From IMG/VR virus record IMGVR_UViG_2645727867_000002: a stretch of 50,477 nucleotides of DNA. One strand, 5' to 3'. The position numbers were made by a program. Every line of letters starts with the position of its first letter. The first letter of the stretch is position 1. Shown here piece after piece: positions 12,001-18,000 of this stretch. The DNA comes from a virus (taxonomy: Duplodnaviria > Heunggongvirae > Uroviricota > Caudoviricetes).

Positions 12001-15000
12001 GCGCTGATGACCGGTATTGATGAACTGGACGCAAAAACGGGCGGTATGGAGCCAGGCGACCTGGTATTCATTGCGGCTCGTCCTTCGATGGGGAAAACCG
12101 AACTTGCGCTGGATATCATCGACAAGGTGACTGAGCAGGGGCATGGCGTGCTTCTGTTCACCATGGAGATGGCGAACATCCAGATTGGTGAACGTATGGT
12201 GTCTGCAGCAGGGGGAATGCCGGTATCCCGTCTTAAGTCTGTTGCCCGTTTTGAAGACGAAGACTGGGCACGTTTCTCACAGGGCGTGGGACGAATGACG
12301 GGGCGTAATATCTGGATGGTGGACCAGGCAAACCTGACCATTGATGAGATATGTGCAACCACGAGGCACCACCGGATGAAACACCCGGAAACGGCGCTGG
12401 TGGTGGTCGATTACCTCGGCCTGATTAAAACCCGCAGCACGGGGCGTCACGACCTTGCTGTGGGGGAAATCTCAAAGGGACTTAAAAGCCTGGCAAAATC
12501 CGGCGGTTTTCCGCTGATTGCTCTGAGCCAGCTCTCCCGTGGCGTGGAATCCAGACCCAATAAACGCCCCATGAACTCGGACCTGAAAAACTCAGGGGAA
12601 ATAGAGGCGGATGCAGACATCATTCTGATGCTTTACAGGGATGAGGTGTACAACCCGGAGACACAGGCGAGAGGCATAGCTGAAATCAACATCACGAAAC
12701 AGCGTAATGGCACGCTGGGTACCATTTACCGGCGTTTTCATAACGGGCATTTTCTGCCTGTGGATCAGGAGAGTGCCCGGGTTCTTTCCACTCCCATGAC
12801 GCCGGGCAATCCGCGCAGATACAGCAATAACCGCATGTCGGGTAGTAAAACGGAGCGTTTATTTTGAACAACAGAACAACCACTGTTTCACCGGAACAAC
12901 TTCGTCGGCAGGCGCAGGAGATGCTTCGTTGTGCTGAACAGATGGAAAAAACGAGCGTGGCAAAAGATACGCTCCGCAAGCAGCTTACTCCGGCGCTTCG
13001 TGATCTGCTGCAGGCAAAACACCGCACACAAAAGGCGGTGGATGAGCTGGTGGATTGCGTGGCGGAACTGGAAGGCCAGGTAAGCCAGTTTGAAACGCTG
13101 GTGAAGGAGTTTACTGCGTGATGGCTGAATTTTTTTCTCCTGCGTTCATGCAATACCGTTCGCTGAGGTGACCGTGAGAGCACTGCTGACCCCTGAAATT
13201 GCCCCGCGTATGGGGATCGTCTTGTTCAGACCCGGTTCAGAGCTGATGCCCCTGTTTATGCAGGGGCGTGTCCTGCTGGAGCCTGAGCCGGAACGTTATT
13301 CATCTTTTGCCAGTGGTGCCGTTCCGGCAGCATCACAACCGCTGGCGGATGATCCTGCCGTTCGGGCCGTGTTCCGCAATGAGGCAGTGATCCGTCGTGC
13401 TGGTGGCGTGGAATGCCTTGAGAGCTGGTTACTTCGTGAAAAAGGCTGCCAGTGGCCTCATTTCGGATGGCACAGCGAGAACATGACCACAATGCGACAC
13501 GCGCCGGGCGCAATCCGTCTGTGCTGGCACTGCGATAACCTGCTTCGCGATCAGTTCACGGAACGTCTGGAGTCAATGGCAACGGATAACTGTGCCCGCT
13601 GGGTGTTGTCCGTAGTCCGTCGTGATCTCGGTTTTGATGACAGTCACGTTGTGACAATGCCTGAACTGTGCTGGTGGCTGGTTCGTAATGACCTGGCGGA
13701 TGCCTTACCGGAAAGTGCAGCCCGTAAGGCCCTGAGATTACCGAAGCCTGTTTTGCCGTCTGTCACCCGGGAGAGTGACCTTGTGCCTTCGGTTCCTGCC
13801 ACCAGCATTATCCAGGATAAAGCGAAAAAGGTGCTGGCGCTGAAAGTGGATCCGGAGTCGCCGGAGTCTTTTATGTTACGCCCCAAACGTCGTCGCTGGG
13901 TTAATGAAAAGTACACGTGCTGGGTTAAGACGCAGCCGTGTGCATGTTGTGGTAAGCCAGCCGACGATCCGCATCACCTGATTGGTCATGGTCAGGGTGG
14001 AATGGGTACAAAAGCGCATGACCTTTTTGTGTTGCCTTTGTGCAGAAAACACCATGACGAACTGCATGCGGATACCGTGGCATTTGAAGAGAAGTATGGT
14101 TCCCAACTGGAGCTGATATTTCGTTTTATCGATCGCGCACTGGCGATTGGTGTGCTGTCCTGATTTTGTGGAGAAAGTTGATGCGTGATATTCAGATGGT
14201 TCTCGAACGCTGGGGTGCATGGGCGGCAAATAATCATGAGAATGTTAGTTGGTCGCCAATTGCTGCGGGGTTTAAAGGCCTCATCCCCTCAAAAGTAAAA
14301 TTTCGACCGCAATGTTGCGATGATGATGGTCTTATCATTAGTTCAGTTATGGCAGTTCTCAAGAAAAAGGAACCATATCAATACCAATTACTGGAAATGT
14401 ATTATGTATATGGGATCACATTACGAGCGCTAGGGGCGAAAATGGGGATATCGCTTAATCAAGTTGTTATTAGATTGCAGAAAGCTGAAGGGTTTGTTGA
14501 AGGGTGTCTGGCAATGCTCGAGGTATCTTTAGAAATGGATTGTTATATGAATCACGAAAATGATTCAAGATAAATGAACTGTTACTAGTTATATTTTACA
14601 GTAATCTCCTGATGATACACGTTCAGCAGGAGGTTATTTGTGAATGAAAATGTAAGACACATATTGCTGGATGCAATTGAAAATAAGAAATCTTTAACGG
14701 TAATTTACTTAGGAGGTAGTCAGCCAGGAACATTGAGAGATATATCTCCGATAAGCATATCAGAAGATAAACTTAGGGCAAGATGCCATAGTACTGATGC
14801 TGTAAAGTTTTTTAATATTGGGAAAATACAACTACCTAGTGACTCGTCCATGATAACTGTGCCATATGGAAGTTTAGATCTTAAAGTTTATGAGACGATG
14901 CAGAGTGTGTATGAGGACTTTCATAGCCTGTATCCGGAAGGTCGATGGGGAGTTGAATTTAATGATCATAAATTTGCTCTATTTGATTTTTTCAAAAATG

Positions 15001-18000
15001 GAAAAAGAAAAAAAACAGCATTTATGGCAATTCAGTTTATGGAAAGACATGAGGATGAAACAAGAACGGAGATAACAATTGATGTCAGTCTATCAGGTGT
15101 TGTGATTTCGGAGGGAGCCAGAACACCTAAAAGACGTCCGTGGGTTGTGACTGGTCCTGGGCGTGGAGAGCTCAGAACTTATTCAACGTTAGACAAAGCT
15201 GCTACAGAGTTTTTTAAGCGACTTTCATTGATGGTATCTATGGCGATTGAAACATAAGGGATATAAAGATACCGAAGAAATGATTTGTGTTATAACAAAA
15301 ACCATCTTAATCTGTTAAGAGTGGTCACTCCGTCATACAGCTTAAACCTGCCGCCTGGCGGGTTTTTTTATGACTGAAATCACGCCAGTACAGTAAACGC
15401 GCTGGCGGCGGTGAATACCGGTCTTTCAGCTTGCTGGCTTTTTTGACAAGAGTTATTGGTGTGTCACGTTAACCGGAAAAGGGAAAAAGACATGCTGAAA
15501 CAGCAGGATATGACAGAAACCGCCAGAGTGGTGTTTAATGAATTAAGTGCCACCGCACCGGCGACTGTCGGGGAGATTGCACAGAATACGTACCTTTCAC
15601 GCGAACGCTGCCAGCTAATACTGACCCAGCTTGTTATGGCGGGTCTGGCAGACTATCAGTTCGGTTGTTACAGACGCCTTCAGTCCTGAAGGCTTTTTTA
15701 TTTGTGGTAAATGGGCGGCTGGTGGGTGTTAGGGGCACTCACCAGCCATCTGCTCATGCGTCCGGATCACAAGCAAACCTCAGGCCCACTGCTTTGCGCA
15801 AAAGCAGAATGAGCCTATCAGAGACAGGCTTAATGATCCATGCTTAATACTGTAAAAATATCCAGTTGTGAGTTGATCAACGCTGACTGCCTGGAATTTA
15901 TCCGGTCGTTACCCGAAAATTCTGTTGACCTGATAGTCACGGACCCGCCGTACTTTAAAGTGAAGCCTGAGGGCTGGGATAACCAGTGGAAGGGCGACGA
16001 TGATTACCTGAAGTGGCTGGACCAGTGTCTGGCGCAGTTCTGGCGGGTGCTGAAACCTGCCGGAAGTCTTTACCTGTTCTGTGGCCATCGCCTGGCATCT
16101 GATATCGAAATCATGATGCGTGAACGCTTCAGTGTACTGAACCATATTATCTGGGCAAAGCCGTCCGGACGCTGGAACGGGTGCAACAAGGAAAGCCTGA
16201 GGGCGTATTTCCCCGCCACAGAGCGCATTCTGTTCGCGGAACATTATCAGGGGCCGTATCGTCCGAAAGATGCCGGGTATGAGGCGAAGGGCAGGGCACT
16301 GAAACAGCATGTGATGGCCCCGCTGATTTCTTACTTTCGTGATGCACGTGCGGCTCTGGGGATAACGGCAAAACAGATTGCAGATGCCACAGGAAAGAAA
16401 AACATGGTGTCGCACTGGTTCAGTGCCAGTCAGTGGCAGCTACCGGACGAAAGCGATTATCTGAAATTACAGGCGCTGTTTGCCCGGGTGGCAGAAGAGA
16501 AGCATCAGCGCGGAGAACTGGAAAAGCCACATCACCAACTGGTCAGCACATACAGTGAACTGAACCGACACTATACGGAACTGCAGAGTGAATATAAGCA
16601 TCTGCGGCGGTATTTCGGTGTGACGGCGCAGGTGCCGTACACCGATGTGTGGACGCATAAACCGGTGCAGTACTATTCCGGGAAACATCCGTGCGAAAAA
16701 CCGGCAGAAATGCTGCAGCAGATAATCAGCGCGAGCAGTCGTCCGGGTGACCTGGTTGCAGATTTTTTCATGGGGTCGGGTTCGACAGTCAAAGCCGCGA
16801 TGGCGCTGGGGCGTCGTGCAACTGGCGTTGAGCTGGAGACTGAACGTTTTGAGCAGACGGTCAGGGAAGTTCAGGATTTAGTCAGTCAGAACGGATGATA
16901 TTGCAGGATTAGTTACGTACCGTTATTATCCTGCGCCCGGCCCTTTAGCTCAGTGGTGAGAGCGAGCGACTCATAATCGCCAGGTCGCTGGTTCAAATCC
17001 AGCAAGGGCCACCATATCACATACCGCCATTAGCTCATCGGGATAGAGCGCCAGCCTTCGAAGCTGGCTGCGCGGGGTTCGAGTCCTCGATGGCGGTCCA
17101 TTATCGGTAGTCAGCGTTGTTAGCTCAGCCGGACAGAGCAATTGCCTTCTAAGCAATCGGTCACTGGTTCGAATCCAGTACAACGCGCCATATTTATTTA
17201 CCAGGCTCGCTTTTGCGGGCCTTTTTTATATCTGCGCCGGGTCTGGTGCTGATTACTTCAGCCAAAAGGAACACCTGTATATGAAGTGTATATTATTTAA
17301 ATGGGTACTGTGCCTGTTACTGGGTTTTTCTTCGGTATCCTATTCCCGGGAATTTACGATAGACTTTTCGACTCAACAAAGTTATGTCTCTTCGTTAAAT
17401 AGTATACGGACAGAGATATCGACCCCTCTTGAACATATATCTCAGGGGACCACATCGGTGTCTGTTATTAACCACACCCCGCCGGGCAGTTATTTTGCTG
17501 TGGATATACGAGGGCTTGATGTCTATCAGGCGCGTTTTGACCATCTTCGTCTGATTATTGAGCAAAATAATTTATATGTGGCCGGGTTCGTTAATACGGC
17601 AACAAATACTTTCTACCGTTTTTCAGATTTTACACATATATCAGTGCCCGGTGTGACAACGGTTTCCATGACAACGGACAGCAGTTATACCACTCTGCAA
17701 CGTGTCGCAGCGCTGGAACGTTCCGGAATGCAAATCAGTCGTCACTCACTGGTTTCATCATATCTGGCGTTAATGGAGTTCAGTGGTAATACAATGACCA
17801 GAGATGCATCCAGAGCAGTTCTGCGTTTTGTCACTGTCACAGCAGAAGCCTTACGCTTCAGGCAGATACAGAGAGAATTTCGTCAGGCACTGTCTGAAAC
17901 TGCTCCTGTGTATACGATGACGCCGGGAGACGTGGACCTCACTCTGAACTGGGGGCGAATCAGCAATGTGCTTCCGGAGTATCGGGGAGAGGATGGTGTC

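What the first reader, a model, noticed from the sequence alone, without database searches (positions are those of the whole stretch)
14574..15460. AT-rich moron between antiterminator Q and the downstream terminator
A 205-aa ORF with its own AGGAGG SD and GTG start sits directly after the Q-like gene and is followed by a GC-rich hairpin with T7 (15346-15368); it is AT-rich relative to flanking genes and has no recognisable domain. Its position, where the late promoter and the Q utilisation site would be expected, suggests expression coupled to late induction.
Basis: partly seen in the sequence, partly recalled or inferred. Interest (0 to 1): 0.5.

Follow-up and report, generated by a model that had tools for sequence, protein, structure and literature searches.

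The report
WYL-domain cargo gene beside antiterminator Q
A real, conserved 205-residue gene sits between the Shiga-toxin phage's late-gene switch protein Q and the late promoter; it encodes a small sensor domain of the kind that binds single-stranded DNA but has no DNA-reading head, and it is an uncharacterised accessory gene that lies outside the toxin-carrying late transcript.

Summary

The late promoter is not at the Q-ORF junction. By colinear homology with the mapped Sakai PR' start, pR' lies downstream of the ORF: -35 at 15285, -10 at 15308-15313, start near 15320. The "downstream terminator" is the first hairpin of the pR' leader, and it is conserved in phages that lack the ORF.

So the gene is nested between Q and Q's own promoter. 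It is read with Q from the early operon, not as a Q-dependent late gene. A conserved hairpin masks its SD and start codon.

In E. coli it is tied to one Q lineage (72 of 74 genomes intact). Elsewhere relatives sit beside CI repressors or in defence islands. The function is inferred only: an ssDNA-sensing phage-host conflict protein.

The parts
14181..14573 (+). Antiterminator Q, 130 aa, Q21/Q933W family. This allele is always found with the ORF.
   Evidence: PF06530 E 5e-49. At most 67% aa identity to any Q in the phage collection, and 32% to Q21. The allele is present in 22 of 5426 complete E. coli genomes, all 22 with the ORF next to it.
14595..14644 (+). RNA hairpin in the Q-ORF spacer. The 5' arm (14595-14611) pairs with the 3' arm (14627-14644), which contains the SD AGGAGG (14628-14633) and the GTG start (14640-14642).
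   Evidence: MFE -24.1 kcal/mol, z -3.8, 0 of 200 shuffles fold as well. Allele 2 keeps an SD-masking stem through partly different pairings (-23.3 kcal/mol, z -3.55). The initiation region is tied for the least accessible of 41 prophage genes (mean unpaired probability 0.12). No Rfam family matches.
14640..15257 (+). ORF205: a WYL-domain protein without an HTH (phrog_8498).
   Evidence: dN/dS 0.23. Family members are nearly all 185-210 aa and stand alone.
14640..14831 (+). WYL domain (residues 1-64): helix 3-14 followed by four strands. Contains the invariant motif Y23-x-G-G-S27-x-P-G-x-x-R33, plus K56, F58 and K62.
14892..15254 (+). C-terminal alpha-beta5-alpha domain (residues about 85-205) ending in a long helix. 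Role unknown.
   Evidence: AF2 secondary structure. Conserved G102, W103, K119, N120, G121, R166, P167, W168, A187, F191, with no conserved Asp/Glu/His. No PDB sequence hit. Foldseek alignments to the DriD C-domain run on to 126-141 columns, but the strand/helix order differs from the WCX domain.
15285..15313 (+). Predicted late promoter pR': -35-like TTGTGT (15285-15290), 17-nt spacer containing the palindrome TGTTATAACA (15288-15297, candidate Q-binding element), and -10-like TAATCT (15308-15313).
   Evidence: Gapless colinear alignment with the Q-proximal promoters of L008, 1720a-02, Stx2a_1447, PhiR40_1 and Min27/Sakai. All have an xAxxxT hexamer abutting G(T/A)TAAGAGTGG. The Sakai -10 TATCAT lies 6-7 nt before the mapped start.
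15314..15372 (+). pR' leader: conserved block GTTAAGAGTGG (15314-15324) with the predicted start at G15319/A15320, then a hairpin at 15344-15365 plus T7 (15366-15372).
   Evidence: The block and hairpin are conserved in phages with four other Q alleles and no ORF205. Hairpin detected. Leader fold -19.6 kcal/mol, z -3.1. Phage 21 has the same compact layout of Q stop, pR', QBE, pause element and terminator.
15492..15689 (+). 65-aa winged-helix ORF (phrog_331), followed by a second terminator at 15676-15693. Context only; not part of the cargo gene.
   Evidence: It is conserved downstream of the pR' leader in all compared phages of this type.

Best explanation
SHOWN
- ORF205 is a genuine protein-coding cargo gene under purifying selection.
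- It is nested between the antiterminator gene Q and Q's own late promoter/leader cassette.
- It encodes a two-domain protein of about 23 kDa. The N-terminal domain is a WYL ligand-binding domain that keeps the phosphate- and base-contacting residues DriD uses to hold 3-4 nt of ssDNA. The C-terminal domain is a basic alpha/beta domain with no catalytic signature.
- It has no DNA-binding HTH, so it cannot be a DriD/CapW/BrxR-type transcription factor.

INFERRED FROM ANATOMY
- No terminator lies between Q and the ORF, and pR' lies downstream. The gene is therefore transcribed with Q on the early-right (pR) message after induction, not on the Q-dependent late message that carries stx2.
- A roughly 17-20 bp hairpin that buries the SD and start codon keeps translation low or gated. 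It might be opened by RNase III-type processing, or bypassed by a weak internal promoter.
- Un-antiterminated transcripts stop at the pR' leader hairpin.
- The gene is held in place because it lies between Q and the cognate Q-binding promoter. Any recombination that keeps a matched Q/qut pair carries it along.

INFERRED FUNCTION (least certain)
- The protein binds single-stranded nucleic acid that appears on DNA damage or phage replication.
- It then acts through protein contacts rather than catalysis, as a sensor or adaptor in phage-host conflict.
- The most likely role is on the defence / superinfection-exclusion side, because relatives sit in the rex-like slot next to CI repressors and inside defence islands.
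For: Real gene:
- phrog_8498, E 1e-111.
- 956 / 610 / 186 relative clusters at E 1e-3 / 1e-10 / 1e-30.
- dN/dS 0.23.

WYL domain and ligand residues.

No HTH and no enzyme domain:
- The family alignment starts at the first WYL helix.
- Pfam, NCBIfam and PADLOC give only WYL.
- No conserved acidic or His residues.

pR' downstream of the ORF.

Layout precedent in phage 21.

No terminator between Q and the ORF, and none of the promoter-like sites found on the + strand in 14000-17400.

SD-masking hairpin.

Linkage to Q:
- 22 of 22 genomes for allele 1, one of them IS-disrupted.
- 51 of 52 for allele 2.
- Q and the ORF have the same dS, 0.80.
- The window and allele 2 share the promoter palindrome TGTTATAACA and an identical predicted Q recognition helix. 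Other Q alleles have other palindromes at the same register.

Contexts of relatives:
- Immediately after, or convergent with, CI-type repressors in five temperate elements: L005, L010 (14-nt gap), L015, L033 and phage PY3.
- Next to Rha or AntA.
- In defence islands: beside a PtuA-like ATPase, an Old/GajA-like nuclease with dGTPase and PDC-S31, and NsnA+HEPN.
Against: - There is no experimental datum on this family.
- ssDNA binding rests on conserved residues and fold only. One DriD contact, R176, is not conserved (T31 here).
- WYL domains can also bind RNA or c-di-GMP.
- The pR' position is by homology to Sakai, not mapped in this phage. The -35 match is poor (3 of 6).
- Guilt by association rests on about 16 contexts and is not a statistical test.
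- Co-transcription with Q in an early lytic operon fits a counter-defence role at least as well as a defence role.
- No independent promoter for lysogenic expression could be shown in E. coli.
- PADLOC has no system model for the protein beyond generic WYL accessory models (E 9e-5).
Confidence: 0.45

Rival explanations
1. The late promoter and qut lie in the 66-nt Q-ORF spacer. ORF205 is the first late gene (or a pR'-tR' leader gene), and the hairpin+T7 at 15344-15372 is tR'.
For: - In relatives lacking the ORF, pR' directly follows Q, so the spacer is where one would first look.
- The spacer is conserved between alleles.
- It contains a TAnnnT hexamer: TACAGT at 14597-14602, and TATTAT in allele 2.
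Against: - The complete promoter/leader block that follows Q elsewhere is present, colinear and intact after the ORF.
- It includes the allele-specific palindrome shared by the two ORF-linked Q alleles.
- The conservation of the spacer is explained by the SD-masking hairpin.
- No promoter-like site reaches 9 of 12 matches there.
- Other phages carry reverse-strand genes in the same gap, which a late transcript would have to cross antisense.
Confidence: 0.08
2. Counter-defence decoy. The protein is expressed early after induction. It mimics the sensor half of host wHTH-WYL-WCX repressors (CapW, BrxR). It either sequesters the ssDNA signal or poisons those repressors' dimers, so that DNA damage does not switch on CBASS, BREX or other WYL-controlled immunity against the induced phage.
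For: - The architecture equals a WYL regulator minus its HTH.
- WYL repressors of defence systems are released by ssDNA (PMC11662680 and PMC9122601, listed).
- The gene is co-transcribed with Q in an early lytic operon.
- The protein is non-enzymatic.
Against: - Relatives lie in chromosomal defence islands and in the lysogenically expressed slot next to CI. One is 14 nt downstream of the repressor gene. That is unusual for counter-defence genes.
- The C-domain is not demonstrably a WCX domain, so heterodimerisation is unsupported.
- Throttled translation fits poorly with a stoichiometric sponge.
Confidence: 0.2
3. Phage developmental sensor. The protein reads ssDNA as a damage or replication signal. 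It then modulates a phage master regulator by direct contact: a CI-type repressor in most phages, and Q or the paused pR' complex in E. coli. This would give RecA-independent tuning of induction or late-gene timing.
For: - It is adjacent to the two switch regulators. It sits beside CI-type repressors in five elements, two of which (129 and 138 aa) are too short to carry a LexA-like cleavage domain.
- In E. coli it is strictly linked to one Q lineage with equal dS.
Against: - Linkage to Q is explained more simply by being trapped between Q and its cognate promoter.
- The defence-island contexts have no phage regulator nearby.
- No interaction data exist.
Confidence: 0.15
4. Functionless hitch-hiker. 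The gene is a decaying remnant kept only because it lies between Q and qut.
For: - One copy is split by ISVsa5 without loss of the prophage.
- The start codon is weak (GTG) and masked.
Against: - dN/dS 0.23 over dS 0.80.
- 72 of 74 copies are intact.
- The family has 956 clusters with invariant motif residues.
Confidence: 0.03

Closest known systems
DriD C-terminal region (WYL + WCX) of Caulobacter crescentus, PDB 7TZV/7U02
   Same: - Best sequence-profile and fold match.
- Same size class (about 195 aa) and two-domain order.
- The GGSxPGxxR loop and the K/R-x-aromatic pair that contact ssDNA are conserved.
   Different: - DriD has an N-terminal wHTH and a three-helix linker and is a transcription activator. 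ORF205 starts at the WYL helix.
- The C-domain strand/helix order differs: alpha-beta5-alpha here, against beta-alpha-beta-beta-alpha-beta-alpha in WCX.
- The C-domain has no sequence match.
CapW and BrxR (wHTH-WYL-WCX repressors of CBASS, BREX and other defence systems)
   Same: - The WYL domain superposes at 1.2-2.0 A with 26-28% identity.
- Both occur in defence islands.
   Different: - ORF205 has no HTH, so no operator binding.
- In islands it is not positioned as the upstream divergent regulator. It sits in line with ATPase or nuclease genes.
WYL1, accessory protein of Cas13d (PDB 6OAW)
   Different: - WYL1 has an RHH domain, is 385 aa, and is tied to CRISPR loci.
- No CRISPR association was seen here.
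Lambdoid morons and the lambda rexAB slot
   Same: - Presence/absence polymorphism between colinear phages.
- Low G+C.
- Relatives occupy the position immediately after the repressor gene.
   Different: - No independent promoter could be shown.
- The terminator is borrowed from the pR' leader.
- In E. coli the slot is Q-pR', not cI-pL.
Q21/Q933W-type late cassette (phage 21 pR'-QBE-SDPE-terminator; Sakai PR'-StxS)
   Same: The cassette at 15285-15372 has the same order and spacing, and its leader is homologous to Sakai/Min27.
   Different: - It begins 712 nt after the Q stop codon instead of about 7-10 nt.
- In place of the StxS sRNA body it carries a 65-aa winged-helix ORF.

Membership tests
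WYL domain superfamily (PF13280) | Sm/SH3-like five-stranded barrel preceded by a helix | tested here: met
WYL domain superfamily (PF13280) | Sequence match above Pfam's gathering score | tested here: not met
   16.5 bits against a cut-off of 21.8, E 0.0086. However, a 49-sequence family profile hits five PDB WYL proteins at E 1.3e-5 to 3.3e-5, and PADLOC WYL models hit at 9e-5.
WYL domain superfamily (PF13280) | Conserved ligand-contact residues on the beta2-beta3 loop and beta5 | tested here: met
   Y23, S27, R33, K56 and F58 align with DriD Y168, S172, R178, R204 and W206 and are 92-100% conserved. DriD R176 and Y192 are not matched (T31, K44).
WYL domain superfamily (PF13280) | Binds ssDNA, ssRNA or a nucleotide ligand | not testable with these tools
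   Needs fluorescence polarisation or EMSA with purified protein.
wHTH-WYL-WCX transcription regulators (DriD, CapW, BrxR, PafBC) | N-terminal winged helix-turn-helix that binds an operator | tested here: not met
   The protein and its 956-cluster family begin at the first WYL helix. No HTH family appears in Pfam, NCBIfam or PADLOC.
wHTH-WYL-WCX transcription regulators (DriD, CapW, BrxR, PafBC) | WCX dimerisation domain after the WYL domain | tested here: inconclusive
Moron (autonomous extra gene in a lambdoid genome) | Present in some and absent from other otherwise colinear phages, with atypical composition | tested here: met
   About 740 bp are absent from 1720a-02 and 13 other Stx2 phages. 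G+C 37.5% against 51.7%.
Moron (autonomous extra gene in a lambdoid genome) | Own promoter and own terminator | tested here: inconclusive
   No sigma-70-like site at or above 9 of 12 matches on the + strand. Only a weak TAnnnT hexamer inside the hairpin arm. The terminator belongs to the pR' leader and is present without the ORF.
Q-dependent late transcription unit | Located downstream of the pR' start and its Q-loading site | tested here: not met
   The predicted pR' start near 15320 is 63 nt downstream of the ORF's stop codon, by homology with the mapped Sakai PR'.
Known anti-phage defence systems (PADLOC-DB 2.0) | Match to a protein model of a described system | tested here: not met
   Only generic CRISPR-associated WYL signalling models match, E 9e-5 and 7e-4.

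The most novel reading that the evidence does not exclude
ORF205 may represent a widespread family (about 1000 clusters) of stand-alone WYL sensors. Temperate phages and defence islands would use them to read single-stranded DNA directly, without RecA and without a transcription-factor head. The protein would then act by protein contact, either as a single-gene superinfection or defence trigger, or as a damage sensor feeding into the CI/Q switches. In E. coli it would be kept permanently by lodging between Q and the Q-specific promoter palindrome.
Probability: 0.25. Interest if true: 0.75.

Novelty: new variant of a known kind. Interest (0 to 1): 0.45.

Why it matters
For Shiga-toxin phage biology:
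- It corrects the regulatory map of the O104:H21 / O113:H21-type Stx2a prophages. Q and its promoter are separated by 740 bp of cargo.
- The gene is not co-transcribed with stx2 from pR'.
- The Q-pR' gap emerges as a recurrent cargo slot, with three different inserts seen.

For the WYL field:
- All characterised members are transcription factors or CRISPR helpers.
- A large HTH-less family living beside phage repressors and defence nucleases is a ready test case for what an isolated ssDNA-sensing WYL module does.

The SD-masking hairpin and the allele-specific promoter palindromes are directly testable with reporter fusions.

Tried and rejected
- Late promoter in the Q-ORF spacer: rejected (see rival 1).
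- Direct naming by Pfam, NCBIfam or PADLOC: only sub-threshold WYL.
- First AF2 model from 5 sequences was mediocre (pLDDT 71.7). It was replaced by a 49-sequence model.
- BFVD fold search: nothing at E<=1e-3.
- The afdb50 library was unavailable.
- C-domain-only profile against PDB sequences: no hit.
- C-terminal extension of the fused phage PY3 homologue: no Pfam or PDB match.
- Longer family members: only one informative fusion, to zinc ribbons.
- Rfam on 14000-17400: only the three tRNAs.
- The search for related loci with the diverse alignment A3 failed for lack of a conserved stretch. A1 was used instead.
- The phage 82 PR' sequence could not be retrieved because the supplement is not held.
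- My initial recollection that PF06530 is the Q82 family was dropped. The preprint text assigns PF06530 to Q21/Q933W, and by an apparent slip also to Q82. tblastn shows 60% identity to 933W-type Q and 32% to Q21.
- Cargo genes of Stx2a_1447 and PhiR40_1 in the same gap gave no defence or Pfam assignment.
- Literature searches found nothing on this family or on this phage's late region.

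
Full report
WHAT IS THERE

The window is the Stx2a prophage integrated beside mlrA. It is 100% identical over the tested kilobase to E. coli O104:H21 strain 94-3024. Gene order in the region, on the + strand throughout:
- DUF968/HNH gene;
- Q, 14181-14573 (PF06530, E 5e-49);
- the finding's ORF, 14640-15257;
- a hairpin with T7;
- a 65-aa winged-helix ORF, 15492-15689;
- a second terminator;
- a DNA methylase;
- three tRNAs;
- stx2AB.

- AGGAGG six nt before a GTG start;
- a 205-codon frame;
- a stem at 15344-15365 followed by T7;
- G+C of 37.5% against 51.7% for the window.

IS IT A GENE?

Yes.
- It matches phrog_8498 end to end (E 1e-111).
- A five-sequence profile finds 956 relative clusters (610 at E<=1e-10) among 1.84 billion representatives. 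Nearly all are 185-210 aa.
- A second E. coli allele is 70% identical in protein and gives dN/dS 0.23 at dS 0.80.
- The start is ATG at the same position in 9 of 22 allele-1 genomes and in allele 2.

WHAT IS THE PROTEIN?

Single-sequence Pfam gives only a sub-threshold WYL hit. Three stronger lines of evidence agree on a WYL domain:
- A 49-sequence family profile hits the WYL domain of DriD and four other solved WYL proteins at E about 1e-5.
- An AlphaFold model built on that alignment has mean pLDDT 85.7.

The most conserved motif of the whole family is Y23-x-G-G-S27-x-P-G-x-x-R33, with K56, F58 and K62. In the HMMER alignment these residues fall on DriD Y168, S172, R178, R204 and W206. In DriD those residues hydrogen-bond the phosphates and stack on the bases of a 3-4 nt ssDNA ligand (PMC9186387).

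The protein begins at the first WYL helix, so there is no HTH.

Residues about 85-205 form an alpha-beta5-alpha domain ending in a long helix.
- Its conserved residues are Gly, Trp, Pro, Phe and Lys/Arg, with no conserved acidic or His residue. An enzyme is therefore unlikely.
- It has no PDB sequence relative.
- Foldseek alignments to the DriD C-domain run on into it (126-141 columns). The order of elements differs from the WCX domain, so I leave 'WCX-like' open.

WHERE IS THE LATE PROMOTER?

In phage 21, the curated record places all of the following within about 90 nt of the Q stop codon: the pR' -35, the Q-binding element, the -10, the start, the sigma-dependent pause element and the terminator.

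In phage 1720a-02 and 13 other Stx2 phages that lack the ORF:
- Similarity to the window is lost inside Q at 14229 and resumes at 15313.
- Their Q stop is followed after about 45 nt by the block GTTAAGAGTGG...CTTAAACC, then a hairpin and T7.

The same block follows Q in the 933W-like phages Min27 and Sakai Sp5.

For Sakai, published dRNA-seq/Term-seq places the StxS 3' end 258 nt downstream of PR' at 1,266,460 (PMC7547250).
- With the 142-nt shift between genome versions, that 3' end is the last U of the second terminator. This validates the shift.
- The PR' start is then G/A at 21-22 nt after the Q stop, inside GATAAGAGTGG and 6-7 nt after a TATCAT hexamer.

Anchored on that block, six phages align without gaps.
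- Each has an xAxxxT hexamer abutting the block. In the window it is TAATCT at 15308-15313.
- Each has a conserved A-tract.
- Five of the six have, just 5' of the A-tract, an 8-10 bp perfect or near-perfect palindrome centred at one register; in PhiR40_1 the corresponding element ACAATCGT is an imperfect version and was not detected as a palindrome.
- The palindrome differs with the Q allele. It is identical (TGTTATAACA, 15288-15297) in the window and in allele 2, whose Q proteins share an identical predicted recognition helix.

I therefore place pR' at about 15285-15313 and its start at about 15319-15320.

It follows that:
- The ORF lies upstream of pR'.
- The hairpin+T7 is the first hairpin of the pR' leader, not the ORF's own terminator.
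- The ORF is nested between Q and Q's cognate promoter.

HOW IS IT EXPRESSED?

- No terminator-like site lies between 14115 and 15344 on the + strand. No promoter-like site reaches the scan's threshold on that strand.
- The gene should therefore be read with Q on the early-right message after induction.
- The 66-nt spacer folds into a long stem that pairs the SD and the GTG with an upstream CUCCU-containing arm (-24.1 kcal/mol, z -3.8).
- Allele 2 keeps an SD-masking stem using partly different pairs (z -3.55).
- Among 41 genes of this prophage, its initiation region is tied for the least accessible.
- Translation is thus throttled or gated.
- What opens the stem is unknown. Possibilities are RNase III-type processing, or a weak internal promoter whose TAnnnT hexamer sits in the 5' arm in both alleles.

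LINKAGE

- The window's Q allele occurs in 22 of 5426 complete E. coli genomes. All 22 have the ORF, one of them split by ISVsa5.
- Allele 2 of Q occurs in 52 genomes, 51 of them with the full Q-ORF region.
- Q and the ORF have the same synonymous divergence (0.80), so the pair has travelled together.
- Carriers include STEC and also stx-negative UPEC and commensal strains. The gene is therefore not toxin-specific.
- The same Q-pR' gap holds two reverse-strand genes in Stx2a_1447 and one in PhiR40_1.

CONTEXTS OF DISTANT RELATIVES (30-38% identity)

The relatives come from Gammaproteobacteria, Thermodesulfobacteriota, Alphaproteobacteria, Planctomycetes and Bacteroidota.
- Five sit next to CI-type repressors of temperate elements. 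One is 14 nt downstream in the same orientation, which is the rexA position.
- Two are next to Rha or AntA regulators.
- Three are in defence islands: next to a PtuA-like ATPase, next to an Old/GajA-like nuclease with dGTPase and PDC-S31, and after NsnA plus a HEPN protein.

This is an impression from about 16 places, not a statistic.

INTERPRETATION

Shown:
- a conserved HTH-less WYL protein;
- nested between Q and pR';
- outside the late transcript;
- with a masked initiation region.

Inferred:
- It binds single-stranded nucleic acid.
- Lacking both a DNA-reading head and a catalytic site, it acts through partners in phage-host conflict.

I favour the defence or sensor side because of the repressor-adjacent and defence-island contexts. 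A counter-defence decoy of WYL-regulated immunity, or a damage sensor acting on CI or Q, remain live alternatives. No paper on this family was found.

Noticed in passing
window 15288-15297; L008, L001, L022, L024, L040, L041 promoter regions: In five of the six phages compared, the late promoter carries an 8-10 bp perfect or near-perfect palindrome centred at the same register, just 5' of a conserved A-tract, and its sequence changes with the Q allele. The elements are TGTTATAACA (window and allele 2), GCGGTCCGC (1720a-02), GCGTACGC (Stx2a_1447) and ACGATCGT (Min27, Sakai, Lahn1); PhiR40_1 has only an imperfect version, ACAATCGT, not detected as a palindrome. The predicted Q recognition helices differ in parallel. 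These are candidate Q-binding elements that co-vary with Q.
   Followed up: partly
L022/L023 (AP012536 13770-15333) and L040 1151-1597: The same Q-pR' gap holds other cargo in other phages. Stx2a_1447 has two reverse-strand genes (343 aa, and 179 aa with a weak membrane-protein hit). PhiR40_1 has one reverse-strand gene of 148 aa. None matches PADLOC or Pfam above threshold.
   Followed up: partly
window 15492-15699: A 65-aa TrmB/MarR-like winged-helix ORF (phrog_331) lies between the first pR' leader hairpin and a second terminator. This is the place where Sakai phages make the 258-nt StxS sRNA. If the first hairpin leaks, as it does in Sakai, this ORF would be transcribed constitutively in lysogens.
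   Followed up: no
window 14640; 22 allele-1 genomes: The start codon is GTG in 13 genomes (mostly STEC) and ATG in 9. In the hairpin the G pairs with a C, whereas an A would not pair. The GTG form is therefore both a weaker start and a tighter mask.
   Followed up: partly
L020 (NZ_CP026723.1 1104374-1106329): In strain 266917_2 the ORF is split by an ISVsa5 (IS4-like) insertion. RefSeq calls the N-terminal piece a 'WYL domain-containing protein'.
   Followed up: yes
L038 (Pseudoalteromonas phage PY3, 2006-3115); P0085, P0136, P0063: Some relatives are fused to a C-terminal extension of about 170 aa (phrog_31886 type). In P0085 the extension is a double zinc ribbon. In phage PY3 the fused gene lies between the integrase and a convergent LexA-like repressor. 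The extension has no Pfam or PDB match.
   Followed up: partly
window 18819-19142 (- strand): A reverse-strand gene just after stx2B is annotated in the identical RefSeq prophage as the anti-adapter protein IraM.
   Followed up: no
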